Virus record (IMG/VR): IMGVR_UViG_3300037780_000016
Coordinates: 1 to 64,000 of that record
DNA length: 64,000 nt
DNA from: a virus
Reading direction: 5' to 3' (one strand)
This document shows, in pieces, positions 1,955 to 55,600 of the stretch; positions within the stretch are counted from its first letter, which is position 1; every line of letters starts with the position of its first letter. The position numbers were made by a program, and so were the translations under genes. The notes beneath the pieces are model-generated. The model made no database searches. It was given only the letters and a program-made list of their open reading frames with translations, and was not told the origin of the DNA.

Positions 1955-2017
1955 TTGCGTTCTGCACGGGAACCTGTATTCTAAGAATGTAAGGAAACAG
2001 AACAGGTCAAGGGAGAC
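1955..2017 (+). promoter_or_regulatory. early promoter/leader cassette
   Basis: TTGCGT-N16-TATTCT-AAGAATGTAAGG...AGGGAGAC. Confidence 0.8.
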
Positions 2018-2023
2018 AGACCA

Positions 2024-2377
2024 ATGGAAAATCGTGGCAAGAGCATCGGCGTTTCGGCGAAGGGCATCGAGTACAAGACGGACAGCAAAGGCCGTACGGT
2101 ACGGGTTCCGACGCGTGACATGCCGGTCACCAAGGAAGAGGTTGTGTTCTTCTTCAAGTGCCGTCGCGGTTTCGACGAGGACGAGGCACTGGAAGCAGTT
2201 GGACCGAACGTCCTGCGCTTCTGGAAGGACAAGGGTTACGTCCGTGAGATCGGCCCGATCAAGGGCATGTTTGGGATCACGGTGAAGGCTCAGGCTCAAT
2301 ACGACCTGCCGGACCCGTACCTGCCGATGGCTGGCTGCACGGCGAAATACTTCCCCGCTGAGCCCGCCAAGAAGTAA
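2024..2377 (+). CDS. hypothetical early protein
   Basis: ORF behind cassette. Confidence 0.8.
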   Translation: MENRGKSIGVSAKGIEYKTDSKGRTVRVPTRDMPVTKEEVVFFFKCRRGFDEDEALEAVGPNVLRFWKDKGYVREIGPIKGMFGITVKAQAQYDLPDPYLPMAGCTAKYFPAEPAKK

Positions 2378-2386
2378 GGAGGCCAT

Positions 2387-2716
2387 ATGGCCCAATCGAA
2401 GATGAGCCGGGTCATCACCGGCCTTGGATTTACCGGTATCGCCTTGGTGGGCGGGGCACTCGCGGGTGCCCTGCTCGCCGCTTTCGTCTGGCCTGTCGTC
2501 GGGATGACGCTCGTGGTCGGCGCGGCGATCCATCTGACCGGCCACCACGCGACGATCCTGCTGGGTCACGCCAAGATGGCCACGGCTCTCAGGGACGGTC
2601 GGCTGAAGGCTGACGTGCAGCGCTCCCTCGGCGGGCACATCTGGAATTTCCTGAGACGCACCGCTATGATCTGGGCGGTCACCATCTATGGAGTATGGCA
2701 TGCGGTTCAAACCTGA
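2387..2716 (+). CDS. hypothetical membrane protein
   Basis: RBS GGAGG, 2-3 hydrophobic segments. Confidence 0.7.
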   Translation: MAQSKMSRVITGLGFTGIALVGGALAGALLAAFVWPVVGMTLVVGAAIHLTGHHATILLGHAKMATALRDGRLKADVQRSLGGHIWNFLRRTAMIWAVTIYGVWHAVQT

Positions 2717-3029
2717 AGACCTCGAAGGCGTCAGCATCGCCGAACTGAGGCAGCTCATCGACGAAACAGACGTGAAGCTGGTCACGCTCATCCACGAGCG
2801 CATGTCTCTGGCAGCCGCCATGACGCAGCACAAGCATGACGCCGGGATGCCGGTCGCCTGCCCGGACCGGGAAGACGCCGTGATCCAGAACGTCGTGGAC
2901 CGGGCGAACACGCTGGACGACAAGCACGGCACCTCCTACATGGCCCGGGTCACCCTGAGCGTCATCTGGACAGCCCTCTTCAATCAGGCGAAGGTTATCC
3001 AGCACACCCTATTGGCTGAAGATAATTGA
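2700..3029 (+). CDS. chorismate mutase (AroQ/type II)
   Basis: ELRQLIDETDVKLVTLIHERMSLAAAMTQHK...PDRE...AKVIQ reproduces the spacing of E. coli CM catalytic R11, R28, K39, R51, E52, plus a Q88-like residue. Confidence 0.85.
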   Translation: MRFKPEDLEGVSIAELRQLIDETDVKLVTLIHERMSLAAAMTQHKHDAGMPVACPDREDAVIQNVVDRANTLDDKHGTSYMARVTLSVIWTALFNQAKVIQHTLLAEDN

Positions 3030-3048
3030 ACCCGGGTGCAAATAATTG

Positions 3049-3108
3049 TTGACCCTGATGTCCGATGCTGTATTCTAAGAATGTAAGGCAACGGACATCA
3101 AGGGAGAC
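3049..3108 (+). promoter_or_regulatory. early promoter/leader cassette
   Basis: TTGACC-N16-TATTCT-AAGAATGTAAGGCAA...AGGGAGAC. Confidence 0.8.
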
Positions 3109-3814: not shown

Positions 3815-3888
3815 TCGAAGTATCGGCGGCTCTGACCGCCATGGCCTTCGCGCTGTCAGCCTTCTGGCCGCGCAAGCACAAACGATAA
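3802..3888 (+). CDS. small hydrophobic peptide (28 aa)
   Basis: GGAGG RBS; MEALIEVSAALTAMAFALSAFWPRKHKR. Confidence 0.45.
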   Translation: MEALIEVSAALTAMAFALSAFWPRKHKR

Positions 3889-3933
3889 GATGAACCCGGG
3901 TGCAAAAAGTTTCGCATCCGGGTCATTTTTTTG

Positions 3934-3996
3934 TTGCGTCACGCCGGGGAAGGTGTATTCTAAGAATGTAAGGCAACAGCATCAGACAAGGGAGAC
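3934..3996 (+). promoter_or_regulatory. early promoter/leader cassette
   Basis: TTGCGT-N16-TATTCT-AAGAATGTAAGGCAA...AGGGAGAC. Confidence 0.8.
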
Positions 3997-4000
3997 GACG

Positions 4001-4306
4001 ATGCAAACCTACACGACCCTCTGGAACGAGCCCCACTGCCGCTTCACCGTCGAGCACAAGCGCAAGACGATGCCGGAAGGATACCCGGAAGCGAAGTACC
4101 AGCTCGACAGCTCCTTCCTGAACCGCGACGACGCGTTCAACATGGCCAAGGAAGACTTCGACGTCTGGGGCGATGTGAGTTTCATCCGCGTCCGCGACGC
4201 CGAGAACCCGGACGTCATGTGGATCGTCTGGCCGAACAGCGCTGGCGAGCCGACCATGGAGCGGATCGACATCCTCCGCAAAGAGATCACGTCGGAGGAG
4301 GCGTAA
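4001..4306 (+). CDS. hypothetical early protein
   Basis: ATG 4001 behind cassette. Confidence 0.8.
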   Translation: MQTYTTLWNEPHCRFTVEHKRKTMPEGYPEAKYQLDSSFLNRDDAFNMAKEDFDVWGDVSFIRVRDAENPDVMWIVWPNSAGEPTMERIDILRKEITSEEA

Positions 4307-4530
4307 TGGCCAACCACGACATCACAGGGAAGACCGGCGACACGCACTGGGTGGCCGCACGGTATTACTGCCGGGAGTTCCGGTGCTGGGTGACCTATCG
4401 GGCATCCGGCCCCTCCCCGGAGGAGCTGGATCAGATCGGTGAGTGCGAATACCACGGCACCCGGGCTGACGCCTGCGAGGAACAGGACGCGGACGTGAGC
4501 CGCCTCGATAACGGAGACTTCGGATCATGA
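4306..4530 (+). CDS. hypothetical protein
   Basis: TAATG coupling, GGAGG RBS. Confidence 0.65.
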   Translation: MANHDITGKTGDTHWVAARYYCREFRCWVTYRASGPSPEELDQIGECEYHGTRADACEEQDADVSRLDNGDFGS

Positions 4531-4871
4531 CCCTACCAATTCTCAAGCATTACGCGTTTATCGCTCCCGTCACGTCTGACACTCGCCCTGACGATTTGCA
4601 GATGTGCCAAACAGAGGCCGGGTTCGAGGGCTGGGCCGTATACCGGTTGGTCTACGACGAGACGAACTACGTGGACCCTATCGGGACTGAATGGGCCATG
4701 CACCACGAGATATTCGATTGCTATTGGCAGGCTACAGCGTGTGCCCTGCGGTTTCACGGTGAGATGTGTGAGACATTGTATCAGGCTCAGGGATGGAACT
4801 ACCCACGGAGGACGTCCCGCGAAAAAACATTGCGTCGGATGAAGAAAAAGGTTGCACCGCTCCCGTGGTAG
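4527..4871 (+). CDS. hypothetical protein
   Basis: ATGA coupling; less typical codon usage. Confidence 0.6.
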   Translation: MTLPILKHYAFIAPVTSDTRPDDLQMCQTEAGFEGWAVYRLVYDETNYVDPIGTEWAMHHEIFDCYWQATACALRFHGEMCETLYQAQGWNYPRRTSREKTLRRMKKKVAPLPW

Positions 4872-4911
4872 TGTATTCTAAGAATGTAAGGCAAGGCCAA
4901 CCAAGGGAGAC
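4852..4911 (+). promoter_or_regulatory. early promoter/leader cassette
   Basis: TTGCAC-N16-TATTCT-AAGAATGTAAGGCAA...AGGGAGAC. Confidence 0.8.
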
Positions 4912-4915
4912 GGAA

Positions 4916-5116
4916 ATGGCAACGCTTCGCACTCAGATCAAAGAAGCTCGCGCAGAGCTTGGCGCTGTGGCCAGCAAGGCTAAGGTCACGGCATTCTTCA
5001 AGGCTCGGGGCCTGAACGCCCAAGAGCGGATCACCAGCGCTGGGGTCATGAACCTCGCACACGTCGAGCTGCACCCAATCATGGGTGAGCAGGTTCGCTT
5101 TGTGGTGGGAGGATAA
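4916..5116 (+). CDS. hypothetical early protein
   Basis: ATG behind cassette. Confidence 0.75.
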   Translation: MATLRTQIKEARAELGAVASKAKVTAFFKARGLNAQERITSAGVMNLAHVELHPIMGEQVRFVVGG

Positions 5117-5117
5117 G

Positions 5118-5603
5118 ATGCCGAACGTTCTTGATCGCAGCCGCACCAAAGGCAACCACGGCTCTCAGCGCCAATTCCACGCGGACCCGGACTTCATCGA
5201 GCTGGTGGACAGCCAGCACGAGCTGCACGCCTTCCGAGCCCGCATGACCGGTGACCCGGAAGCCCACATCGTCGCAGTCCCGAACCAGTTGCGCCTCCTG
5301 CGCAGCCTGCTCAAGCGGAACCAGTACCCGACCGTGGAGTTCTACGTCCGCAAGGGCATCGGCTCCCTGAAGTGCGCCACCCCGACCGTCCGCCAACTGG
5401 AAGCGCTGGGGTACTGGAAAGAGCACTCTCGCTATTCCGGCGGCACCTGCGTCGAATACTGGGACGAGTACAGCGGCCCCAACCCGTTCATCCGGGAAGA
5501 GAACCGCACCATCTGGAAGGATGACAAACGCACCGTCCAGAAGCACCGCGAACTGATTGAACCCGGGTTCACGAGTGACCCCATCGAAGTGGACAGGGGG
5601 TAG
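5118..5603 (+). CDS. hypothetical protein
   Basis: GGAGG RBS, operon position. Confidence 0.75.
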   Translation: MPNVLDRSRTKGNHGSQRQFHADPDFIELVDSQHELHAFRARMTGDPEAHIVAVPNQLRLLRSLLKRNQYPTVEFYVRKGIGSLKCATPTVRQLEALGYWKEHSRYSGGTCVEYWDEYSGPNPFIREENRTIWKDDKRTVQKHRELIEPGFTSDPIEVDRG

Positions 5604-5605
5604 AG

Positions 5606-5866
5606 ATGCTGACGACCACCTTTGATCTTGTGGAGAGCAAATACGCTCTCCGCGACTTCGACGACGAGTTCGTTGCGCTGGACTACGACGCGCAGCAGCG
5701 CCTGATCGACGTCCTTCTGTCCATCGGCCCAATCACCGAGGTCGAGCACTACGACGGGATCGTGATCACCCTGAAGCATGAGCACGCCAGACCGGACGCT
5801 CAGCTCAAGGCCCAGATCGCGGTCATCATCAAACAATTCCTGCGCAAGGAGGAACCCCATGTCTGA
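5606..5866 (+). CDS. hypothetical protein
   Basis: Operon position, codon usage. Confidence 0.7.
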   Translation: MLTTTFDLVESKYALRDFDDEFVALDYDAQQRLIDVLLSIGPITEVEHYDGIVITLKHEHARPDAQLKAQIAVIIKQFLRKEEPHV

Positions 5867-6117: not shown

Positions 6118-6447
6118 ATGCAGGTCCGTGATCCCATAGCTGTCCGGGAGGCGAAACTGCGGGAACTCTCGCAACTCCCCCGGGGAACCGTCATCGAACT
6201 GATCGAGCACGCCCATGGGGTAGACACCGCCCAAGGCTATCGCGTCCACCTGAAACCGGGGCAGGTCTTGATGCTGGTGCAGGCGACAGACGAATACGCT
6301 CTGTTGCGCGACACCAGACTGAACCTGATCCGTATCGACCACCACAACATGATGCGGATCAAGGAACACGACCCCGAGCCGAAGAACAACTACCGCCCCC
6401 TCAAGGGACCGGAACGGAAGATGGAGTTCGACGATGATAGTTATTGA
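6118..6447 (+). CDS. hypothetical protein
   Basis: GGAGG RBS; ends RKMEFDDDSY. Confidence 0.7.
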   Translation: MQVRDPIAVREAKLRELSQLPRGTVIELIEHAHGVDTAQGYRVHLKPGQVLMLVQATDEYALLRDTRLNLIRIDHHNMMRIKEHDPEPKNNYRPLKGPERKMEFDDDSY

Positions 6448-6700
6448 CGTGAACCTGATCAGTGCGGTCTCCCGCACCCGTGACTGCAAACTGGGCACCA
6501 TGGTCATCTGCAACGTCGCGACCTCCCAGTGCGGCAACTACGGGGACTACAAGGTGGACGTCTATAAGAAAGGGACCAAGGACTTCAGAGAGGCCAAACC
6601 CTTTCGCTCTGGTCGCGTCTTCAACCACCCACGCAAGAGGGAACCCATCTGGAAGCTCCTCGCGAAAGCACTGGAAGCAGCAGGATACGAGACGATCTGA
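6434..6700 (+). CDS. hypothetical protein
   Basis: Overlapping start, operon position. Confidence 0.65.
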   Translation: MIVIDVNLISAVSRTRDCKLGTMVICNVATSQCGNYGDYKVDVYKKGTKDFREAKPFRSGRVFNHPRKREPIWKLLAKALEAAGYETI

Positions 6701-6853
6701 GCCCTGATCCCTCCGCCCATCTCCAATGAACCGGGGTTCAAAATCGTGTAAATCGAGTATCCTCAGCCCAAATCTGAAATCGCACCTGTGATTTGACGGC
6801 CCCCGAAAGGCCACCTAGAACTGACCACCAAGACGCCTGAGAGGAGGCCCCAC

Positions 6854-7060
6854 ATGCCGAGACGATCACCACAAGGAGGGACAGGGAGTGACATTGTCTG
6901 GCTGATGCTGGCGCTCTTCTTCTTCGTCCTGATCAGCGGATGCGCGACCACTATGAACATGATCCCCCGCTCAGAAGACCCGGGAGTGGAACCCGGCGGA
7001 TACGCGGAGATGTGCGCAGACCCTGAGCGCTACGAACCGACCCTGTGCCCTGAGCAATAA
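6854..7060 (+). CDS. small lipoprotein
   Basis: Hydrophobic stretch ending in lipobox ISGC; C-x10-C downstream. Confidence 0.65.
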   Translation: MPRRSPQGGTGSDIVWLMLALFFFVLISGCATTMNMIPRSEDPGVEPGGYAEMCADPERYEPTLCPEQ

Positions 7061-7070
7061 GGAGGAGCCC

Positions 7071-7247
7071 ATGCACAACCCGCTTCAGATGGCCTACAGC
7101 CTGTCACGGACAGGTGAGCCCGAGCCCGGCGACATCGTGACCCAGCGACAGCCCCGCACCAACGAGAAACGAGATCGCGGCATCATCCGAGAGGAATACC
7201 GTGACCCGGACCAGAACGACCCGTATCGCGGACAGGGGGAAGCCTGA
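7071..7247 (+). CDS. hypothetical protein (58 aa)
   Basis: AGGAGGAG RBS, TGATG coupling to next gene. Confidence 0.55.
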   Translation: MHNPLQMAYSLSRTGEPEPGDIVTQRQPRTNEKRDRGIIREEYRDPDQNDPYRGQGEA

Positions 7248-7684
7248 TGTCTGAGAACCCGAGCATCCGCCGAGCCTGCGAGGAAGTGAAGCGCCGAGTG
7301 GACCGCGCCCTCGAATGGAAAGACGACCGCGAGACCATGGGCATGCTGGAACACTGGCAATCCCACGCCCGGGAGATCATCGCGAACGAGGAGCACCGCT
7401 ATTACGACGACTGCGACGGTTTCGCCCTCACGTCGGCTCAGCTCCTCATGGAGCAGTATGACATCGATCCCGGGGCCGTCCGACTGGTCCTGTGCCTCAC
7501 CCCGGGTGGACATCACGTCTTCTGTGCGGTGGACGATGAGGAGGCCGGTGAGACGTACTGCCTCGACAACAACATGGACCGGGTGGTCTCCCCTGCCCGT
7601 CTACGCCGTGAAGAGTACAAACTGATGAGCTATATGGATTTTGCCCGCAAAGGCGTGTGGCGAGCGATTACGGACGTGGGCTAG
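7247..7684 (+). CDS. transglutaminase-like cysteine peptidase (BTLCP/C93, LapG-like)
   Basis: DCDGFAL...GHHVFCAV...YCLDNN catalytic Cys-His-Asp motifs. Confidence 0.75.
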   Translation: MSENPSIRRACEEVKRRVDRALEWKDDRETMGMLEHWQSHAREIIANEEHRYYDDCDGFALTSAQLLMEQYDIDPGAVRLVLCLTPGGHHVFCAVDDEEAGETYCLDNNMDRVVSPARLRREEYKLMSYMDFARKGVWRAITDVG

Positions 7685-20966: not shown

Positions 20967-21076
20967 AAACGCTGAACCCGGGTGCAAATAGGGTTGCCAG
21001 CCGTTTATGCTTGTGTGTATTTTCGCCTCATCAGCCGGGCACTAACGGCGCAGCAGAGCGACTTGGAGACACCAGC

Positions 21077-21886
21077 ATGACCGCGAAGGTTTCGTTCGAG
21101 CATATCAAACCGGGGGACATTGTACCCTATGACAACAACCCCCGTGACAACGAAGCCGCCATCGAAGCGGTCCGTAACTCCATCGAAGAGTTCGGCTTTT
21201 TGGTCCCCGTGGTCGTTGACGACGACAACGTACTGGTCGCGGGCCACACCCGCCTTGAGGCCATCACCCGCATCCTGAAGGATGATCCGACCAAGACGGA
21301 CATCTACGAGACCATCCCCGCGATCCGTGCCCGTCACCTGACGAAAGAGCAGATCGACACCTTCCGCATCGTCGATAACAAGACTTCCGAACTGGCGGAC
21401 TGGGACTTCGACAAGCTGGCCACCGAGATCGCTGCCCTCACCAAGTCCGGCATCGACATGGTGCAGTTCGGCTGGAAGCAGGAAGAGCTGGACTGCCTGT
21501 CCAACGTGGTCGCTCTCGACTGTCTCGGTGATGGTGCTCTGGCCGGGCTGGCTGACGCTGACGACGCCACCTCTGGCCAGACCAACGCAACCCCGGACGG
21601 CATCAACACCGCCCATGGTGGCGGCTACGAAAACGGCAAGACCCGTGACGGCCTCTCTGCCCGCATCGCCTTCGGCGGCATGCTGGGCTTCTTCGTACTC
21701 ACCGAGGACTTCGACCACTGGTGGGACGAGCAGATGAAGGCCAACGACTACAACCCCGAGAAGACCCTCGAAAGCCTCGCTGAAAAGCTGGGCCTGAAGG
21801 AAGCCTACGACCGCCGCAAGGAGATGGTCTCGGCTCAGGACACCGAGGACGAGGGCGAGAAAGCCACGGAGAGCAACGCCGCCTAA
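21077..21886 (+). CDS. ParB/Srx N-terminal domain protein
   Basis: PYDNNPRDN...SIEEFGFLVPVVVD...AGHTRLEA...FRIVDNKTSE. Confidence 0.85.
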   Translation: MTAKVSFEHIKPGDIVPYDNNPRDNEAAIEAVRNSIEEFGFLVPVVVDDDNVLVAGHTRLEAITRILKDDPTKTDIYETIPAIRARHLTKEQIDTFRIVDNKTSELADWDFDKLATEIAALTKSGIDMVQFGWKQEELDCLSNVVALDCLGDGALAGLADADDATSGQTNATPDGINTAHGGGYENGKTRDGLSARIAFGGMLGFFVLTEDFDHWWDEQMKANDYNPEKTLESLAEKLGLKEAYDRRKEMVSAQDTEDEGEKATESNAA

Positions 21887-21913: not shown

Positions 21914-23506
21914 ATGGCGGAAGCAAAACTCATCTCCCTCGCCGACCTCGAACCTGCGGCGTACAACCCCCGAGAAGCCGACACGGAACGCCTCCGTCTG
22001 CTGGGTATGTCCCTGCGGAAGCTCGGCTTCATCCTGCCCCTGTACGCGGACCCCGATGGTCGGCTCCTGTCCGGGCACCAACGCCTGTTGACGGCGACCA
22101 ATCTGAACTGCACCCATGCGCCGGTCATGGAGATCAACCCCGAGGGCTCCCATGGTGAGACCGCGAAGACGCTGAACGTGATCTTCAACCGGGCGACCAA
22201 TGACATGGCCGGGACAGAGGACAGCCAGCAGCTCCTGAAGAAGCTCGGCCTGTACGACCTCCAAGCGAAGCTGGACGCGGTGCCGGACAAGGACGTGACC
22301 AGCGACGAGTTCTTCCGCTGCGTGAACCCCGAGATGGTCCCGCTGGCTGATCTGAAGGACGGGCTGACCCGGACCTACGACATGGGCGCGGTCTCTATGG
22401 CCACGAAGCTGTTCCGCCGGGGTGTCAAGATGAACGCCGTGGTGAACCGGGACACTGGCGAGATCGTGAACGGGAACTTCCGTATCATGGCTGCCATGGA
22501 GAACGCGGGCAAAATCCAAGGGCTCGATCCGTACCCGGTCGTCTACATCTCGAACGAGGAAGCTGAGCTGGCCGGGCTCCTCCTGAACATGATCAGCATG
22601 CGGTTCACGCTGGAAAAGCAGTACGCGGACGATCTGCGTTTCGGCTCCTTCCGCCGGACGACGCTGGTGGTGGAAGACCTGACGCTGGCCATGCGTGCGT
22701 GGGTGGACGGGGCTGCGAAGAGCGCCCACGAAAGCCTCGCCAATCCGATGAAGTTCTGGTCGAAGTTCCGCAAGATGTACGGCAACTCCGTACTGGACTT
22801 CGGGGCCGGACAACGCCGCCAAGGTCGCATCTTCGAGCAGAAGGGCATCCGTGCAACGGAATGGGAGCCCTACCCCTGTGACGTGCACCGGGAAATCCCG
22901 GGCTCCGACAGCACCCGCCCGAACCTTCAACTGGCCCGACAGGTCACAGATACGTTTCTGGAAGACGTCCGCAATGGGGTCGCGTGGGATGGCATCTTCC
23001 TGAGCGCCGTACTGAACTCTGTGCCCTTCCTCCGCGACCGGCTGATCGTCCTGACCGTGGTGCATTCGCTCTGCCACCTGCACACGAAAGTCGCGGGCAC
23101 CTGCCGGGACGCCCGGTACAAGGACGGGACGAAGCGCCTGAACCGGGTGCGCCAAGACGGCAAGATCGCCACCGCCGTATCGGTGTTCGACCTCGACTAC
23201 GAGGAGGACGTCGTGATCGGCGACATCAACCGGGCTCCCAAGGTGCAGAAGTACGAGCACCCCGAGGGCATGCGGGCGATGATGCACCCCTTCTTCGAGA
23301 CGGTCGAAATCAAAGCTGGGCAGGGCAAACTCCTGTTCCAGTGCCAGCACCCGAAGCGTGTGAACCTGTCCCTGTTGAAGACTGCTCTCCTGCACGAGTT
23401 CAATCTGCCCTATCCGGACGGGGAAAGCCTCGACCGGGGACAGCAGGCTCTGGACGCGTGGGGCGAACGTCTCGGCGTGGACTTCTCCAAGATTGAGGAA
23501 GCATAA
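21914..23506 (+). CDS. tandem ParB-like domains fused to a SAM-dependent (amino-type) DNA methyltransferase-like domain
   Basis: YNPR...GFILP...SGHQR; second unit EIVNGNFR; motif I VLDFGAG; strand-4 motif FLSAVLNSVPF. Confidence 0.75.
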   Translation: MAEAKLISLADLEPAAYNPREADTERLRLLGMSLRKLGFILPLYADPDGRLLSGHQRLLTATNLNCTHAPVMEINPEGSHGETAKTLNVIFNRATNDMAGTEDSQQLLKKLGLYDLQAKLDAVPDKDVTSDEFFRCVNPEMVPLADLKDGLTRTYDMGAVSMATKLFRRGVKMNAVVNRDTGEIVNGNFRIMAAMENAGKIQGLDPYPVVYISNEEAELAGLLLNMISMRFTLEKQYADDLRFGSFRRTTLVVEDLTLAMRAWVDGAAKSAHESLANPMKFWSKFRKMYGNSVLDFGAGQRRQGRIFEQKGIRATEWEPYPCDVHREIPGSDSTRPNLQLARQVTDTFLEDVRNGVAWDGIFLSAVLNSVPFLRDRLIVLTVVHSLCHLHTKVAGTCRDARYKDGTKRLNRVRQDGKIATAVSVFDLDYEEDVVIGDINRAPKVQKYEHPEGMRAMMHPFFETVEIKAGQGKLLFQCQHPKRVNLSLLKTALLHEFNLPYPDGESLDRGQQALDAWGERLGVDFSKIEEA

Positions 23507-23508
23507 GA

Positions 23509-24234
23509 ATGGAAAACCACGACCCCCACTTCCCGAAGAGCAACTTTGCCTTCGACGAGACCGTCGCCCCGATCTTCGACAGCATGGCTGCTCGTTCGAT
23601 CCCGGGGTACGCGCTGGCACATCAGCACATCACCGAATACATGAGCGTCGCTGACCTGACCCCGTTCGACGCGGTCTGGGACTTCGGGTGCTCGACCGGG
23701 GCGGGGCTGGTCGCTGCACGTAAAGGTGCTGGCCAGACCCCGTTGCGCTATATCGGTGTCGATCCCTCTCAGCCGATGCTGGACATCGTCAAGGAGCGCT
23801 ATCCGTGGGTGCAGACGATCCAAGGTGAGCTGCCCCGGGCAGAAGCCTTCCCGTGGTCGGACATGCAGACGTTCGGCTCCGCCACGGCCTGCATCTTTGC
23901 CTACACGCTCCAATTCATGCCGAACCCTGACGACCGCCGGAAGATGCTGCAACAGGCATACGCGGCTCTTCAGCCCGGCGGCATGCTGTTCGTGTTCGAG
24001 AAGTGGAAGATCGACGGCATCTTCGAGGACATCGAAAACCAGCGCTATTGGAAGTGGCGTATGGACAACGGCTACACCGGTCACGAGATCGAGCACAAAA
24101 CCGAAGCGCTCAAGGGGTCCATGTGGCCGTGGCGCGAGACTGACCTGACCGATGCCCTCCAAGCGGCGGGCTTCACGAGGATCAACCAACTGTATCGCCA
24201 GTTCATGTTTGGCGGATACGTAGCAGTGAAGTGA
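23509..24234 (+). CDS. cmoA: CmoA-like carboxy-S-adenosyl-L-methionine synthase
   Basis: FAFDETVAPIFDSMAARSIPGY, DFGCSTG, YTLQF, LQPGGMLFVFEK, NGY..EI..K, AGF..LYRQFMFGG track CmoA end to end. Confidence 0.8.
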   Translation: MENHDPHFPKSNFAFDETVAPIFDSMAARSIPGYALAHQHITEYMSVADLTPFDAVWDFGCSTGAGLVAARKGAGQTPLRYIGVDPSQPMLDIVKERYPWVQTIQGELPRAEAFPWSDMQTFGSATACIFAYTLQFMPNPDDRRKMLQQAYAALQPGGMLFVFEKWKIDGIFEDIENQRYWKWRMDNGYTGHEIEHKTEALKGSMWPWRETDLTDALQAAGFTRINQLYRQFMFGGYVAVK

Positions 24235-24244
24235 ACCCGGGTTC

Positions 24245-25057
24245 ATGACAACGGAGAACGGTAGTCCACGTCCAAGGTGGCGACCGCGACCCGGAACACA
24301 GCCTTCTAGCCCGCTGTCGCCCGATGATCGCAGACGCTTCCTTGAGATGGCCAACAGCTCAGACCCTGTCGTGTCGGAGACCGGGAGAGCTGTGCTTGAA
24401 GGCCGTCCCCCGGACCACCGTAATCTGTTGTCCACCACCCCGGCTGAAGTCCTCGGCCCTGACCCGGTCGCCGAAGCGAACGCAGAACGCGCCCTAGCGA
24501 CGGCGGAAGAAAACCCCGGGCGTGCTCTGTCCCCGTCGGGCGGCAAGGAAGCCAAGCTCCGTATGCTCGCCATGCTGGAACCGGCTCGCCTGTCCGATGA
24601 AGCGGTCGCGAACCAGCTCGGGGTCAGCATAAACACGCTGAGGAACTATTACGTCGAACTGCGACGCCGACGCCGTGAGAAGCTGGCCTACACCGATCCG
24701 CAACAGATGGTCGCCGACCTCCTGATGCCGCTCGGGAATATCATGGCCGGTGTACAGCGCGACCTGATCAACCTGCCGTCCAATGCGACCAACGCGGAGA
24801 AGACAGCCCTCCGCCGTCTGGTGCTGGAAACGCAGCAGCGCATGGTGTCTACGCTCCTGAACTCCAAATACTTCGACTTCGCCCCGCTCATCGTGCAGAG
24901 CGATATCGAGGAGAGCGCCGGTACGGACATGGCGAAGATCGACCGCCTCTTGGCTATCGCTGTGCGTGACGACGTCGAGAGCGAGGAGGACTTCAAGGAG
25001 AAGCTGGGCGAACTGGAAACCTCCACTCTCGAAGAGCGTGAGAAGGGGCTGTTCTGA
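24245..25057 (+). CDS. putative terminase small subunit
   Basis: HTH-like AVANQLGVSINTLRNY, helical; coupled directly upstream of TerL. Confidence 0.55.
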   Translation: MTTENGSPRPRWRPRPGTQPSSPLSPDDRRRFLEMANSSDPVVSETGRAVLEGRPPDHRNLLSTTPAEVLGPDPVAEANAERALATAEENPGRALSPSGGKEAKLRMLAMLEPARLSDEAVANQLGVSINTLRNYYVELRRRRREKLAYTDPQQMVADLLMPLGNIMAGVQRDLINLPSNATNAEKTALRRLVLETQQRMVSTLLNSKYFDFAPLIVQSDIEESAGTDMAKIDRLLAIAVRDDVESEEDFKEKLGELETSTLEEREKGLF

Positions 25058-49642: not shown

Positions 49643-52600
49643 ATGAAGTCGGAAATCGATCTCTCTGTAGAGTTCCACAAACCCGTAGCTATCGAAGGCG
49701 CTGGCGGTAAGGGCGGCGGTGGCGGAGGCAAGGAAGCCCCCGACAGCCTGCGCTCGAACTCGTCTGGCAAGCTGCAACACATCCTGTCCGAAGGTCCGTG
49801 CGGCGGCATCGAAGGCGGTCTTGAAGGCGTCCATTACAACGAGACGCCGCTGATGGTGGGCTCCCAGAAAAACTTCAAGGGCGTCCTGATGTACGAGAAC
49901 TTTGGCCGGGGCGATCAAGCGTCCATGCCGGGGTTCGACGCAGTCACGAACGTCGTACAGGTTCAGCAGGCCGTGACGCAGGCATCCGGCGGTTACGCCG
50001 TGGCCTTCACGGACGCTCAGGTCACCGCTGTCAAAGTCACGATCTCCACGTCCAGCTTCTTCGAGGCTGACGACAAGGGCAATGTGAACGGCTCCTCCGT
50101 CACCTTCGCTATCGACCTGTCTCTGGGCGGTGGTGCGTTCAATCAGGTTGCCACGGGCACCATCACGGGTAAGACGCGCACGAAGTACGAGCGCGACATC
50201 CGTATCCCGATTGACAGCCCCGGTCAGGTCTCCGTACGCCTTCGCCGCGTCACGGCTGACAGCTCGTCCCTGAAGATCGAAAACACGATCAGCTTCGAGC
50301 GCTATACGCGTGTGATCGAGCATCGCCTGAACTACCCGTTCCTCGCGACGGCTGGCCACATCTTCGACGCCAAGCAGTTCGGCAACCGCATCCCGCAGGT
50401 CCAGTACCGCTTCAAGGGTCGGAAGGTGAAAGTCTTCTCGAACATGGACGGTGCAGCCCGGACGTTCTCCGGCAACTGGGATGGCACGTTCAAGGTGGCT
50501 GAAGAGTGGACCACGTGTCCCGTCCTGATCTTCCGCGATCTGGTCCTGAACAAGCGCTATGGTCTGGGCAAGCATGTCCCGGAAAGCCTGCTCGATGGGC
50601 CGACCCTCTATCAGCTCTCGCAGTTCTGTGCCGAGCTGGTCCCCGATGGTAGCGGTGGGCAGGAACACCGTTTCAGCACCAACGTCGTCCTGAACCGCCG
50701 CTCTGAGGCGTTCAACCTGCTGCAACAGCTCACCGCTGCCTTCCGTTCCATGCTCTTCTGGATGGACGCCAAGCTGTGGCTCCTGTCCGACCAAGATCGC
50801 GACCCGGTCAAGGTGGTGACCAACGCCAATGTGATCGGCGGCAAGTTCACCTATGCGGGCGAGAGCAACAAGCAACGCTACTCCGTCGTCAACGTCTCCT
50901 ACACCCGGGATGACGATTACTTCCGCAAGGGCGTGGAAGTGGTCGAGGACCGTGAGTTGATCAAGGAGCTGGGCTGGAAACCGACCGACCTCGGCACGCT
51001 GGGCGTCTCCTCGCGCGGTCAGGCCCGCCGTCTCGGCCTCTACCTGCTGAACGATCAGGAGCGTGAAGGCGAACTGGTCACCTATCAGGCGTCCTTCGAT
51101 CACCTGCAAGTCGCGGCTGGCGATGGCCCCTCTGGCGTTGCACCCGGTTCACGCATCCTGATCGCGGACAAAGAACGCGGCAACGCTCTGGTGCAAGGCC
51201 GGGCGACCGGCGTGTCTGGCTCTGACATCACGCTGGACCGCGACACGGGCGAGACGGGCACCGGCAACGGCACTCTCTACATGGAGACCGACGAAGGTGT
51301 CATGGAGAGCGTGGCGTGTACCTACACCGGCTCTGTGGTCACCGCGACCGAAGCGTTTACCGGCACCCCGGCGTCGGGCAACCTGTTTATCCTTGTGACC
51401 GGTGTTTCGGTCGCGGAGGAGTTCACGGTCGTCAACGTCACCGAGAAGGACAAGAACACCATTGAGGTGGTCGCCAAGAAGTTCGACAGCACGAAGTGGG
51501 CGCGTATCGACAACGATACCCCGACCGTCGGCCCGGACATCATGCAGCGCCCCTCCCCTGAGTATGTCGAGGCCCCGACGGCTTTCGACGCTCAGATCAA
51601 CTGGGTGACGCACACCGACCACCTCGAAAAGAAACTGGACATCGACTGGACCGACAGCACCGATGAGTTGCTGGACAACTACATGGTCCTGTACCAGCAC
51701 AACAACGGGAACTGGAAGGTTCTCGAAGCGTCCACGTCCACCTCCAACATCATCTTGGAGAAGGCGGAGACGGGCACCTACAATTTCCAGATTTACGCGG
51801 TGAACAGCGCTGGTCGCCAGTCTCTGCCTCTGGAAGGTTCCATCGTGGTCCCGGCGGTCCCGCCGACCGTGGACAACGCCGTGGGCACCGTCTCCAATCT
51901 GGCTCTGGACGAAGGCGGCACCGAGTTCACCGGCCATTCCGCCAAGTTCAACTGGAACGTCAATTCCCCGACCGGCGTGGCAATCCAAGACGAGATCGGT
52001 GGAACGCAGAACACGGGCGCTATCGACCCGAATTTCCGCGACTGTCTGGTCACGGTGAAGCGCACCGACGATACGGTTCTGCGCACCGAGAGCGTCGTGG
52101 GTAACCACTACGTTTATACTTCTGAGAAGAACACCGAAGACAATTTCGAGCTGGACGCCTCGGCCCCGGTCCGTAATTTCAAGGTCGAGGTCCAGTACCG
52201 CGACAAGTTCAACCGGGTATCCACGGCGGAGGTGATCACCGTCAGCAACCCGGCTCCGGCTGCTCCGACCCTGTCCACCGAGACGGTCCCGCGTGGCGTC
52301 ATGCTGACCGCGACGTCCCCGACCGATCTGGACTGGGCGGGTGCTCGCGTCTGGACGAAGGACACGGCCAGCATCAACCCGGCCTCCGACCCGTACACCG
52401 ACTATGGCCGGGTCAACGCCTTCTTCATCCCCGTGAACCCGGGTGCAACGAAATACTTCCGCGTGGCCTTCTTCGACGAGTTCGGCAAGACCACGGGCGA
52501 ACTGAACGTCTCCGCTGAAGGTTCGGCGTCTGTCCCGCTTGTCGGCAATACCGACATCGGCGCTGGCGTCATCGCCATCGACCGGCTGGTGCAGACGGCT

Positions 52601-55600
52601 CAGGACCGTATCAACGCGATCCCGAATATCGAAAGCGATATCTCCACGCTGCAATCCGATCTGGGCACGGCTCAGTCTGATCTGGACGCAGCGGAACGTC
52701 TGCTCGATGCGACGAACTGGGGCGCTATCGTCGCCAACATGGAACCGATCCACCCGGACCTGCAATGGTCTGGCGGCACGGAGTTGTCCGCTGTCCTGAC
52801 GTCCGGGGGGAGCCGGGCTACTGAGAGCACGGTGAACGGTGATCTGCAACTGGTTACGAACGCGACCGGCTCGCAGTACCTGTACCTCGACAATCTCGTC
52901 GCTAATGGCCTGCCTGCCGAGGTGGCTGGTGACCTGTCGTATGCTGACGCTCGTTATCTGGTGTTGGAGTTCACGCCGACGGTCGATGCCGGTAACGACT
53001 TCACGACGCACCTCCGGGCGGCGTTCCGTACGAATAGCGCGGACAGTGCGAACTGGTTTGACCCGGTCACGGGAACGTCCAACGACCAGCTCGTGGTTGG
53101 TCGTCGCTACACGGTTGTCTGGGACTTGTTCGGCAAGACTGCCACGTCTGGTCAGGTGTGGGGCTCCGCCGCCCCGGATCGCATCTGGTTCGAGTGGCAG
53201 GACGGTAACGCCATTGGCAACACGGCGATCATCCATAAGGTCGCCCTGATGTCCTCCGGCGATGTCATGACGGCGTATAGCCGCGCTCGTATCACGGACA
53301 ATGAAACGCTGACCGCTGACCACGCTTCCCGTATCAATACGCTGGAAGCGTCGGACGGAACGAACACGTCCGCGATCAGTTCGCTTCAGAGTGTGCAGTC
53401 GGACCACGCGACCCGCATCAACAATATCGAGACGACGCAAGGCACCTACGGTTCTCGCATCACGACGGTCGAGAACACGACGGCCTCGCAGGCGACGGCG
53501 ATCACGAACCTCGAAACCACGTCGGCGTGGGTAGCTGGCGGGACGATCCCGCCGGGGCACGGCCATGTCGGTATGACGGGCGACCTGACGTTCGAAGCCA
53601 ATATGCTGACCACCGGGGCGAATGACGGTGAGATCAAGGTCACGGGCACGTACTACGAGCACCCGACCGCTGGTCGCCGCTCGACGAGCGCCGCGTTCGA
53701 TATCAACACGCCGTATGAAGGAAACACGTCTGGCTTCCAGACCCGGGCGTACCTGATCTGCTCGAATGTCGCCTGTCCGACCCGTTTCTCTGGCTGGGAC
53801 GGTGTGTCCTCGAACGGTGCGGAACACTTCTTCCTCGCTGTGTACTACGAGAGCAGTGGCTCTTGGACGGCCTTCGGCAACACGACCTCGCATCCGTACA
53901 CGCCTCTTGATAGCGATGTCGTCGTCGCGGTCCTGACCAAGCCGAACACTGCCTCCGGCGGTATCGATACTCTGACGTCTCTGGTCACCCAGACCGGTAA
54001 TCTGGACGGTCGCGTAGGCTCCGCCGAGAGTTCCATCACGATCCTGAACACTACGACGGGCAATCAGGCGACGGCAATCAGCAACCTTGAGACCGCAGTC
54101 GGCACCCCGTCTGGCGGTGACCTGTTCTCCCGCATCGCAACGGTAGAAACGACGTCTGTCGGTAACGCGAGCCGCCTGTCTCTGGTGGAGGTCGGCCAGT
54201 ACGAGCAATATCGCACCGGCCTGTCCATGAACGCAGTGGACCAGCGGATCGTCATGGACGATTACGCCATCGTGGACATTGTGGCGATGGAAGACAACGT
54301 CACGGTCTACCAGAACGGCTCTGTGCTCACGACCCTGACGAACCGTGGTGACGTTTACTCGCTGTCGGTCGGCAACCAGACCAAGGGCGATATCCTGACG
54401 TCTGACAAGCCGACAGCGATGTATGATCGTGGTGGTTACCCGCTCCCGCATCTGGGCTTCAAAGGACGCCAATTCATCGCCAAGCAGACCCGTGCGGCGA
54501 ACATCGAGCTGAACATCTACTCGGAAGAAGACGCTTTCGCTCTGATCTACGTCCGGAACAACACCAACTCCGAAGCACACCCGAACCCTGCCCGCGTCCC
54601 GACCCCGACGGCGGACCTGTCTGCTGGCTTGTCTGGTGGTGCCGTGACGACGATCACGCTGGATGCGGCCACGTATGGGTTTGTCGATGGCGACAACGTC
54701 TCCGTTTACATTCAAGCCTCGACCGACGTCGTCGTTATGTGCCGGGATGGAGACAGCGCCGACGACCACAGCATCGTCCCGCCGGTCTCCCGCCGCGTCC
54801 TGAACGCTCGGGCCAACGAGTTCAATACGTTTGACAGCGTCGCGACGTGGACGACCAACTCGTCTAGCGCTACGGCAAACGGCGACATCTACTATTTCTA
54901 CGACAGCGACGTACCGGGCTCCACGTTTGAAGCAGGTGACGGCTCTGGCACCGCCAACGCTCACGGCCTTCCGTACGAGGCTCTGGGTGACACGTACATC
55001 ATCCCGGCAAACACGGCGCTGGAAGTGACCGTTGTCGCGGTTGAGCCGTGTATCGTGGACGTCACGAATGTCGGCAACACGATCCAGCAGTCGCTGGATT
55101 TCACGGCAGCCTCCTTTACGAACCCTGTTGCGATCAGCATCGAAGAGCAAACCACCGGGACTTATCCGTGGTCCGGACAGGCTGTCACCCTGAAGTCCCG
55201 GGACGGCACCCCGTTCGGTGTCCGCATCGACGACAATGACGCTGACGAGATGTGGCTGCTCGGGTATCGCGAGAGCCTTCAGCAGAACTTCGTCGGTGGT
55301 CGCGTCGGCGTGGTCGAGAAGGTCACGAAAGATAACGCCTCTCGCCTGACCACGGTCGAGACCACGGCGGGCAACAACAGCTCCGCTATCTCGACGCTTC
55401 AGACGACGACTGGTAACAACGCCACAGCTATCAGTGCGATCCAGACGTCTATCGGCACCGACGACGCTCAGGGCAACTTGTTCAGTCGTATCGCGACGGT
55501 CGAGAGCACCAGCGCGGCCAACGCGTCCCGGATCACCACGACGGAAATCCAGATCAACGGTGCTCTGCCTCTGCTCCCCCAAGGTGGCAATCTGGCTCAG

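What the first reader, a model, noticed from the sequence alone, without database searches (positions are those of the whole stretch)
2700..3029. Phage chorismate mutase with intact active site, a likely prephenate supply for the CmoA homologue
Seen: an AroQ-type sequence with residues spaced like E. coli R11, R28, K39, R51 and E52, a Q88-like residue, and a position in an early transcription unit. Established: the product prephenate is the CO2 donor for CmoA, and host P/T-proteins are feedback-regulated. Inference: a stand-alone mutase raises free prephenate for carboxy-SAM synthesis rather than for aromatic amino acids.
Basis: partly seen in the sequence, partly recalled or inferred. Interest (0 to 1): 0.8.

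Follow-up and report, generated by a model that had tools for sequence, protein, structure and literature searches.

The report
Phage chorismate mutase feeding carboxy-SAM synthesis
A 92-kb uncultivated phage carries a small, apparently intact chorismate mutase whose product, prephenate, has only one recognisable user in the phage, a CmoA-type carboxy-SAM synthase, so it most likely tops up the precursor for a DNA carboxymethylation system, an unpublished add-on that other phages have acquired independently.

Summary
ORF 2700-3029 (+) is a genuine AroQ/CM_2 chorismate mutase: Pfam 49.9 bits, a confident three-helix model closest to E. coli EcCM, and R11/R28/K39/R51/E52 plus a Q88-like Gln all present.

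The phage is a complete 91.7-kb siphovirus. It also encodes a CmoA homologue (23509-24234) that scores like the biochemically validated phage SpCmoA, next to a ParB-fused methyltransferase-like protein. It has no prephenate dehydratase, prephenate dehydrogenase, CmoB, U32 hydroxylase or DAHP synthase, so CmoA is the only recognisable prephenate user.

The co-occurrence test is asymmetric:
- None of 90 CmoA- or ParB-transferase-bearing phage records has a CM, including the closest relatives.
- Of 44 viral contigs found through a CM motif alone, 10 carry CmoA, 7 of them within 1.5 kb. They show several gene orders, unrelated CM sequences, and sometimes a DAHP synthase.
- Two complete phages have CM but no CmoA.

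Prephenate supply for carboxy-SAM is therefore the best reading (about 0.65), but here it rests on inference. The gene lies 20.5 kb from cmoA and nothing has been measured. The CmoA/CmoX paper (Yang 2025) leaves prephenate supply open, and I found no paper on phage CM. This scan had already noted CM-CmoA operons on other DNA.

The parts
2700..3029 (+). Chorismate mutase gene (AroQ/CM_2, 109 aa; an alternative in-frame ATG lies at 2688)
   Evidence: Pfam CM_2 49.9 bits. EcCM catalytic residues are aligned. AF2 pLDDT 87.9 with three helices. Foldseek top hits are all AroQ mutases. GC 60.3% and GC3 0.82 match the genome.
2690..2693 (+). GGAG ribosome-binding site, 6 nt before ATG 2700
   Evidence: Read from the sequence. 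The 93%-identical homologue P0001 is 109 aa, which agrees with this start.
1977..1994 (+). Recurrent promoter -10/leader motif TATTCTAAGAATGTAAGG at the head of the transcription unit that ends with the CM gene
   Evidence: Nine copies with at most one mismatch in the first 12 kb and three weaker ones, against 0 expected. Sequence context. Its promoter function and early timing are inferred.
2024..2377 (+). First gene of the unit (117 aa, no family match)
   Evidence: ORF list. No NCBIfam or PHROG hit.
2387..2716 (+). Second gene of the unit (109 aa, hydrophobic, no family match); it overlaps the CM start by 17 nt
   Evidence: ORF list. No NCBIfam or PHROG hit.
3027..3040 (.). Near-copy of the genome-wide 14-bp palindrome TGAACCCGGGTTCA; its TGA is the CM stop codon
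   Evidence: 33 copies in the window against 0.06 expected. A copy at 24232 likewise supplies the cmoA stop codon.
3049..3088 (+). Next sigma70-like promoter (TTGACC, 16 nt, TATTCT) plus leader motif; it marks the end of the CM unit
23509..24234 (+). CmoA homologue (241 aa), the proposed consumer of prephenate
   Evidence: TIGR00740 118 bits over positions 13-239 of 239. H. influenzae YecO 1im8 E 1e-26 and E. coli CmoA 4gek E 2e-19, both full length. phrog_4752 E 2e-45. The validated SpCmoA scores 115.6 bits on the same model.
21914..23506 (+). 530-aa ParB-fused methyltransferase-like protein directly upstream of cmoA, the candidate carboxymethyl transferase
   Evidence: phrog_5475 E 2e-85 with an N-terminal ParB-like region. 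It is a full-length homologue (30% identity, E 4e-75) of the G083 protein that hits ParB_N and Methyltransf_23, and the DFGAG motif is conserved.
21011..21886 (+). ParB-like protein (291 aa) heading the module
   Evidence: phrog_620 E 3e-44. SM1 and HJ05 have the same gene order.

Best explanation
The gene encodes a cytoplasmic, stand-alone AroQ chorismate mutase that converts host chorismate to prephenate. The phage CmoA homologue then uses prephenate plus SAM to make carboxy-SAM, releasing phenylpyruvate and water. The adjacent ParB-fused methyltransferase-like enzyme presumably transfers the carboxymethyl group to phage DNA. The mutase has no allosteric domain. It sits in a promoter-rich left-end unit that looks early, so it would raise free prephenate before and during DNA replication. 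It is an optional booster, not a core part of the system. Shown here: the fold, the catalytic residues, the CmoA homologue, the absence of other prephenate users, and the cross-phage linkage. Inferred: enzyme activity, timing, flux effect and the DNA product.
For: (1) The mutase looks intact. (2) The CmoA homologue is full length and scores like the experimentally validated SpCmoA, 118 versus 115.6 bits on TIGR00740. (3) The genome has no prephenate dehydratase, prephenate dehydrogenase, CmoB-type enzyme, U32 (TrhP-type) hydroxylase or type I DAHP synthase, so CmoA is the only recognisable prephenate consumer. (4) A CM-motif scan of viral contigs, blind to CmoA, found 44 true CM_2 records. Ten carry CmoA, 7 within 1.5 kb. 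At a CmoA base rate of 0.15-1%, P is at most 2e-11, and at most 2e-6 after collapsing to lineages. (5) The linked arrangements differ: CmoA-CM-DAHPS, CmoA-[DAHPS-CM fusion]-CmoX-type MTase, CM-MTase-CmoA, and MTase-CmoA-CM. One of these MTases is SpCmoX-like with the Cx-SAM-binding Arg350 kept. The CM domains are only 16-42% identical between groups, which points to repeated independent recruitment. (6) The same ParB-transferase/CmoA module as here occurs in the complete phage G083 with a DAHPS-CM fusion 6 kb upstream, and in Aeromonas phage HJ05 with a DAHP synthase just after the terminase. (7) Yang et al. 2025 name prephenate availability as an open issue for phage CmoA.
Against: The CM is 20.5 kb from cmoA and in a different transcription unit. 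None of 90 CmoA- or ParB-transferase-bearing phage records has a CM, including the nearest relatives, so host prephenate normally suffices. Complete phages G061 and G065 have a CM but no CmoA, so phage mutases have at least one other use. In vitro, spontaneous chorismate rearrangement was enough to feed CmoA (Herbert 2020, PMC7496830). The mutase scores below every NCBIfam equivalog cut-off. No activity, timing or DNA chemistry has been measured.
Confidence: 0.65

Rival explanations
1. The mutase is a general metabolic helper unrelated to CmoA. It boosts or redirects aromatic metabolism during infection, either by supplying Phe/Tyr or by draining chorismate away from host products such as folate, quinones, siderophores and tryptophan.
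For: 34 of 44 CM-bearing viral contigs show no CmoA. Two of them are complete genomes (G061, G065), where the CM sits among replication genes such as RecA and other genes unrelated to CmoA. Here the CM is not next to cmoA.
Against: The phage encodes no prephenate dehydratase or dehydrogenase to carry prephenate on to Phe or Tyr. Many CmoA-negative contigs are small fragments or proviruses with host-like P-protein-sized genes. This reading does not explain why CmoA is enriched more than 20-fold beside phage CM genes.
Confidence: 0.2
2. The protein has the AroQ fold but a different job. It could be an isochorismate-pyruvate lyase (PchB-like, making salicylate), or a weak or non-catalytic AroQ that binds and deregulates host DAHP synthase, as the small mycobacterial AroQ and the B. 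subtilis AroA regulatory domain do.
For: PchB and the B. subtilis DAHPS CM-like domain are among the top sequence and structure hits. The protein is below all NCBIfam chorismate mutase equivalog cut-offs and weakly hits the isochorismate lyase model at 23.6 bits. D48 and S84 are replaced.
Against: The best family scores go to canonical mutase models. All invariant catalytic residues are kept, and positions 48 and 84 vary among the aligned homologues. Helix 3 is full length, unlike what I recall of the partner-dependent small AroQ type (the comparison is from my own knowledge). Nothing in the genome points to isochorismate or salicylate use.
Confidence: 0.1
3. The gene is a neutral or decaying passenger with no role in infection.
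For: It is rare: only one close homologue among 1.84 billion representative proteins, and it is absent from related phages.
Against: The frame is open with a good RBS, the catalytic residues are kept, composition is fully adapted to the phage (GC3 0.82), and a 93%-identical copy exists elsewhere.
Confidence: 0.05

Closest known systems
E. coli chorismate mutase domain EcCM (AroQ alpha, PDB 1ecm) and other stand-alone AroQ mutases such as M. jannaschii MjCM
   Same: Three-helix AroQ fold (TM 0.73/0.83 to 1ecm). Equivalents of R11', R28, K39, R51, E52 and Q88 are present. About 100 aa with no signal peptide.
   Different: About 23% identity to 1ecm in the structural alignment. It is stand-alone rather than fused to a dehydratase with an ACT regulatory domain. 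D48 is Cys and S84 is Ala. It is an orphan lineage: the next relatives after one 93% copy have E of about 7e-6 or worse. It is phage-encoded.
CmoA-CmoX-CmoY DNA 5-carboxymethylcytosine pathway of Synechococcus phage S-B43 (Yang et al., Nat Commun 2025, PMC12783734)
   Same: A phage CmoA homologue of equal model score, a ParB-domain neighbour, and an AsnB-like PP-loop enzyme elsewhere in the genome.
   Different: There is no C5-cytosine methyltransferase (CmoX) in this genome; a ParB-fused, Methyltransf_23-like 530-aa protein sits beside cmoA instead. S-B43 has no chorismate mutase, and the paper never mentions one. The product here is unknown.
CM-containing cmoA operons in other uncultivated phages (G069, G074, G089, G091, G103; G083 group), verified here
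   Same: A phage-encoded AroQ domain together with CmoA. G083 shares the same ParB-transferase/CmoA module.
   Different: In those phages the CM lies within 0-6 kb of cmoA, often with overlapping stop and start codons or fused to DAHP synthase. Here it is 20.5 kb away in the left-end unit, and it is at most 27% identical to any of them.
Engineered in vitro cascade of chorismate mutase, CmoA and a methyltransferase (Herbert et al. 2020, PMC7496830)
   Same: The same logic: chorismate to prephenate to carboxy-SAM to a carboxymethylated product.
   Different: It is a synthetic in vitro system. The authors found the mutase dispensable there because chorismate rearranges spontaneously.

Membership tests
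AroQ / CM_2 chorismate mutase (PF01817) | Match to the family profile above the curated threshold | tested here: met
   49.9 bits against a cut-off of 27, E 3.7e-13. The six-frame search of the genome gives the same result.
AroQ / CM_2 chorismate mutase (PF01817) | All-helical three-helix AroQ fold | tested here: met
   The AF2 model has pLDDT 87.9 and helices 13-47, 55-69 and 79-108. The top Foldseek hits are all AroQ mutases or PchB; 1ecm gives TM 0.73/0.83. The dimer was not modelled.
AroQ / CM_2 chorismate mutase (PF01817) | Catalytic residues equivalent to EcCM R11', R28, K39, R51, E52 and Q88 | tested here: met
   The pairwise alignment to 1ecm and the invariant columns of a 30-sequence alignment agree. 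The register for Q88 is ambiguous between two Gln residues five positions apart.
AroQ / CM_2 chorismate mutase (PF01817) | Secondary ligand contacts D48 and S84 of EcCM | tested here: not met
   They are Cys and Ala here. Both columns vary among the aligned homologues, so this is weak evidence against activity.
AroQ / CM_2 chorismate mutase (PF01817) | Assignment to a named equivalog subfamily (NCBIfam) | tested here: not met
   The best hit is TIGR01791 at 43.1 bits against a cut-off of 66.95. All 21 hits fall below their cut-offs.
AroQ / CM_2 chorismate mutase (PF01817) | Chorismate-to-prephenate activity | not testable with these tools
   This needs an enzyme assay or complementation of a mutase-deficient strain.
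CmoA carboxy-SAM synthase (TIGR00740) | Full-length match to the CmoA model and to solved CmoA structures | tested here: inconclusive
   118 bits over positions 13-239 of 239 is below the cut-off of 193.3. The biochemically validated SpCmoA scores 115.6 bits. 1im8 gives E 1e-26 and 4gek E 2e-19, both full length.
CmoA-CmoX-CmoY system (Yang 2025) | C5-cytosine methyltransferase homologue with the SPPC motif and Arg350 (CmoX) | tested here: not met
   The 91.7-kb genome has no PF00145 match at E up to 10.
CmoA-CmoX-CmoY system (Yang 2025) | AsnB-like ATP-dependent amide ligase (CmoY) | tested here: inconclusive
   A 413-aa Asn_synthase-domain protein lies at genome 89321-90562, outside the window. 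It matches SpCmoY only over a 64-aa PP-loop stretch at 39% identity, and it is not near cmoA.

The most novel reading that the evidence does not exclude
Some phages add a precursor-supply tier to carboxy-SAM-dependent DNA modification: a chorismate mutase, a DAHP synthase, or both, recruited independently many times. In this phage an early-expressed, unregulated mutase would prime the prephenate pool for a CmoA coupled to a ParB-guided transferase that is not a C5-methyltransferase, yielding a DNA modification not yet described.
Probability: 0.4. Interest if true: 0.8.

Novelty: new variant of a known kind. Interest (0 to 1): 0.62.

Why it matters
Phage DNA carboxymethylation through carboxy-SAM was described only in December 2025, and its authors left open where enough prephenate comes from. 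A phage-encoded chorismate mutase, and in other phages a DAHP synthase, gives a direct and testable answer. It would mean phages can reach into the shikimate pathway to fuel a DNA modification. That would be a new class of auxiliary metabolic gene, tied to genome protection rather than to energy or nucleotide supply. It would also offer a compact natural gene set (CM, CmoA, transferase) for making carboxy-SAM and carboxymethylated DNA in cells. The asymmetry found here, where CM is rare among CmoA phages but CmoA is common beside phage CMs, suggests the booster matters only in certain hosts or at high modification loads. That can be tested experimentally.

Tried and rejected
1. I first took the 3706-aa ORF and the hairpin-like leader motif for an N4-like phage with a virion RNA polymerase. 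That was wrong: the ORF is a lambda-J-type central tail fibre and the promoters look sigma70-like.

2. Close relatives of the CM gave almost nothing.
- tblastn against 50,697 phage records found no match.
- The word-indexed protein search found one hit.
- A full phmmer scan of 1.84 billion representatives found one 93% copy, then only remote hits.
- The search for related loci with the CM found nothing.
- CM alignments were too variable for that tool.

I shortened it with a fixed gap and it ran.

4. From memory I expected E. coli CmoA Arg199 to be essential. The phage protein has Thr there, but so do SM1 (Thr) and HJ05 (Asn), and the validated SpCmoA has Glu. I dropped this as an argument. The original 2013 CmoA paper was not held.

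5. I looked for a second prephenate-dependent step (a TrhP/U32 hydroxylase) and for CmoB. Both are absent.

6. I looked for a consistent alternative partner around CMs in CmoA-less phages and found none.

7. DAHP synthase is not a general companion of CmoA: 1 of 50 and 0 of 25 contigs.

Full report
**What is at 2700-3029**

The + strand carries an ORF from 2688 to 3029. The in-frame ATG at 2700 has a GGAG 6 nt upstream, and the only close homologue found anywhere is 109 aa long.

Several lines of evidence identify it as an AroQ chorismate mutase.
- It matches Pfam CM_2 (PF01817) at 49.9 bits, E 3.7e-13, against a cut-off of 27.
- phmmer against solved structures returns almost only AroQ chorismate mutases and the related PchB.
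- The alignment to E. coli EcCM (1ecm) pairs R11, R28, K39, R51 and E52 with identical residues, and Q88 with a Gln.
- In a 30-sequence alignment with the best remote homologues, the R, R, K and E columns are invariant and the R51 column nearly so.

Two weaker points remain.
- D48 and S84 of EcCM are Cys and Ala here, but both columns vary among the homologues.
- The register of helix 3 is ambiguous. Two Gln residues lie five positions apart: phmmer picks one and MAFFT the other.

An AlphaFold2 model built from that alignment has mean pLDDT 87.9 and three helices.

The protein falls below every NCBIfam equivalog cut-off. It is an orphan lineage: a full phmmer scan of 1.84 billion representative proteins finds one 93% copy, and after that no genuine CM better than E 7e-6. 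Its GC content (60.3%) and GC3 (0.82) match the genome, so it is not a recent arrival.

**The phage and the transcription context**

The window is the first 64 kb of a 91,687-bp IMG/VR virus record with 127-bp direct terminal repeats, rated complete. All convincing genes are on the + strand. My first guess of an N4-like phage was wrong. The 3706-aa ORF is a lambda-J-type central tail fibre, so this is a siphovirus.

An 18-nt motif, TATTCTAAGAATGTAAGG, recurs nine times with at most one mismatch in the first 12 kb, against 0 expected by chance. Its TATTCT acts as a -10 box 16 nt after TTGACC at 3049-3076. The copy at 1977 heads a unit of three genes: 2024-2377, 2387-2716 and the CM. The next promoter begins 20 nt after the CM stop codon. 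The two upstream genes match no family.

'Early' is a reasonable inference from the position and the promoter array, but it has not been shown. The CM stop codon lies inside a near-copy of the genome-wide palindrome TGAACCCGGGTTCA. So does the cmoA stop codon, at 24232.

**The proposed partner**

A six-frame search with the CmoA model TIGR00740 finds one match, at 23539-24231: 118 bits, E 2e-35, covering model positions 13-239 of 239. The ORF 23509-24234 aligns over its full length to H. influenzae YecO (1im8, E 1e-26) and E. coli CmoA (4gek, E 2e-19).

The score is below the curated cut-off of 193 bits. The CmoA of Synechococcus phage S-B43, shown biochemically to make carboxy-SAM (PMC12783734), scores 115.6 bits on the same model. 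The sub-threshold score is therefore not an argument against function.

The neighbours of cmoA are:
- upstream, a ParB-like gene and a 530-aa protein with an N-terminal ParB-like region (phrog_5475);
- downstream, a 270-aa ORF and then the large terminase.

Pseudomonas phage SM1 and Aeromonas phage HJ05 have the same gene order.

The genome has no C5-cytosine methyltransferase, so this is not the published CmoX arrangement. An Asn-synthase-domain protein lies at genome 89321-90562, after the ribonucleotide reductase genes. It shares only its PP-loop stretch with SpCmoY.

The phage encodes none of the other enzymes that make or use prephenate: prephenate dehydratase, prephenate dehydrogenase, a CmoB-type enzyme, a U32 (TrhP-type) enzyme, or type I DAHP synthase. 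It therefore has one producer of prephenate and one recognisable consumer.

**Does CM go with CmoA across phages?**

*Starting from CmoA or its ParB-fused neighbour: no.* No CM_2 domain was found in any of 90 records.

| Records searched for CM_2 | With CM_2 |
|---|---|
| HJ05, SM1 | 0 of 2 |
| Erwinia phage Y3, Pseudomonas phage PaBG, a faecal phage contig | 0 of 3 |
| S-B43 | 0 of 1 |
| IMG/VR contigs with the closest CmoA relatives (two complete ~100-kb genomes) | 0 of 9 |
| Contigs of the PaBG/Y3 CmoA clade (nine at least 90% complete) | 0 of 50 |
| Contigs carrying the 530-aa protein family, including the nearest large relative (96 kb, 46% identity) | 0 of 25 |

The mutase is a rare add-on, and host prephenate must normally be enough.

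*Starting from CM: yes.* I scanned the viral contigs with a degenerate AroQ motif that contains no information about CmoA.
- Of 48 records searched, 44 have a true CM_2 domain.
- Ten of these also carry a CmoA homologue at E 1e-10 or better.
- The two genes lie within 1.5 kb in seven records and 5-6 kb apart in three.
- Only 75 of 50,697 reference phage records (0.15%) match this CmoA. At base rates of 0.15-1%, ten of 44 has a binomial probability of 2e-11 or less. After collapsing to about six lineages it is still 2e-6 or less.

Pfam annotation of the neighbourhoods shows several different arrangements.

| Contig | Arrangement |
|---|---|
| G091 | CmoA, CM, DAHP synthase, with the CM stop overlapping the DAHPS start |
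| G074 | CmoA, a DAHPS-CM fusion, then a C5-methyltransferase |
| G089 | CM, C5-MTase, CmoA |
| G069 and G103 | C5-MTase, CmoA, CM |
| G083 group | a DAHPS-CM fusion 6 kb upstream of a ParB_N + Methyltransf_23 protein and CmoA |

Three further results strengthen this picture.
- The G074 methyltransferase is SpCmoX-like: 8yf3 at E 9e-84, against 4e-23 for the next structure. It keeps the GSPPC motif and the Arg350 that binds the carboxy group.
- The G083 ParB-fused protein is a full-length homologue of the 530-aa protein here (30% identity, E 4e-75, DFGAG motif conserved). The same module type as in this window has therefore acquired a mutase independently.
- HJ05, which has that module too, carries a DAHP synthase directly after its terminase.

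The CM domains linked to CmoA share only 16-42% identity between groups, and the one studied here is at most 27% identical to any of them. The association therefore arose repeatedly.

*Limits of the association.* Thirty-four CM-bearing contigs show no CmoA. Many are small fragments, or proviruses with host-like P-protein-sized frames. But G061 (109 kb) and G065 (223 kb) are complete and have no CmoA even at E 0.01. Their mutases sit among replication and other genes unrelated to CmoA. Phage mutases therefore have at least one other use.

**Mechanism proposed**

The steps are:
1. Chorismate is converted to prephenate by the phage mutase.
2. Prephenate plus SAM is converted by CmoA to carboxy-SAM, phenylpyruvate and water. 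This chemistry is established for CmoA (reviewed in PMC10491745; shown for a phage enzyme in PMC12783734).
3. The carboxymethyl group is transferred to DNA, presumably by the ParB-fused enzyme.

From general knowledge of the pathway, two points follow. The stand-alone AroQ domain lacks the ACT domain through which Phe controls the bifunctional P-protein. And phenylpyruvate still feeds Phe, so the carbon cost of the detour is small.

As a rough scale, the genome has 7,544 GC dinucleotides per strand. If the target were as frequent as the GC motif reported for CmoX, about 15,000 carboxy-SAM molecules per genome copy would be needed. That makes a flux argument plausible. The true target here is unknown.

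Against necessity, Herbert et al. found that spontaneous rearrangement of chorismate sufficed to feed CmoA in vitro.

**Comparison with what is known, and novelty**

The CmoA/CmoX/CmoY pathway is published (Yang et al. 2025). That paper never mentions chorismate or a mutase, and it states that prephenate availability needs investigation. Searches of the paper library found no article that combines chorismate mutase, CmoA and phage, and none using phrases such as 'phage chorismate mutase'.

Earlier notes of this scan had already flagged CM-CmoA operons on other genomes and the ParB-transferase module on this one. I treated them as leads and re-derived the linkage from an independent motif scan.

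The gene is a new, divergent member of the AroQ family. The system is a new variant of a known kind: a known cofactor pathway, an unpublished precursor-supply add-on, and a transferase that is not CmoX.

**Verdict**

The best explanation is prephenate supply for carboxy-SAM, at about 0.65. The rivals are a CmoA-independent metabolic role (0.2), an AroQ-fold protein with another activity (0.1) and a passenger gene (0.05). Interest is moderate to high. Everything beyond sequence, fold and gene linkage still needs an enzyme assay and a measurement of the DNA modification.

Noticed in passing
L007 (Aeromonas phage HJ05, OQ594355.1) 6257-7420: A DAHP synthase (PF00793, 169.5 bits) lies directly after the large terminase of the same ParB / ParB-transferase / CmoA module. 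The record annotates it as hypothetical. It suggests that shikimate-pathway entry is boosted in a cultured phage that could be tested.
   Followed up: partly
L239 (G091) 3820-5851, minus strand: A compact operon of CmoA, a 106-aa chorismate mutase and DAHP synthase. The CM stop and the DAHPS start overlap by 4 bp. This is a phage-encoded two-step push from central metabolism to prephenate.
   Followed up: partly
window 3027-3040 and 24232-24245: The stop codons of both the CM gene and cmoA are the TGA of copies of the genome-wide 14-bp palindrome TGAACCCGGGTTCA (33 copies in the window against 0.06 expected).
   Followed up: partly
L006 10606-12562 (genome 88606-90562, beyond the window): A 244-aa protein matching phrog_4786 ('cysteine dioxygenase') overlaps the start of a 413-aa Asn-synthase-domain protein, just after the ribonucleotide reductase genes. 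It may be a second-step (amide-forming) modification pair, or unrelated.
   Followed up: partly
L248 (G061) 4035-4322 and L251 (G065) 3851-4105: Two complete phage genomes (109 kb and 223 kb) carry small stand-alone chorismate mutases but no CmoA. The mutases sit among RecA and other genes with no link to CmoA, so their role is unexplained.
   Followed up: partly
L240, L241, L243, L245-L247 (DAHPS-CM fusions in phages): The CM domains fused to DAHP synthase have Arg-Tyr or Arg-Trp where EcCM has R51-E52. They may be a distinct AroQ subtype or regulatory domains.
   Followed up: no
viral contigs: The 530-aa ParB-fused transferase family is common: 266 relatives in the viral contig collection. 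Many lie on the same contigs as the CmoA hits.
   Followed up: partly
window 49643-60763: A 3706-aa ORF whose N-terminal 780 residues match lambda-J-type central tail fibre families. That is unusually long for a siphovirus tail tip protein.
   Followed up: no
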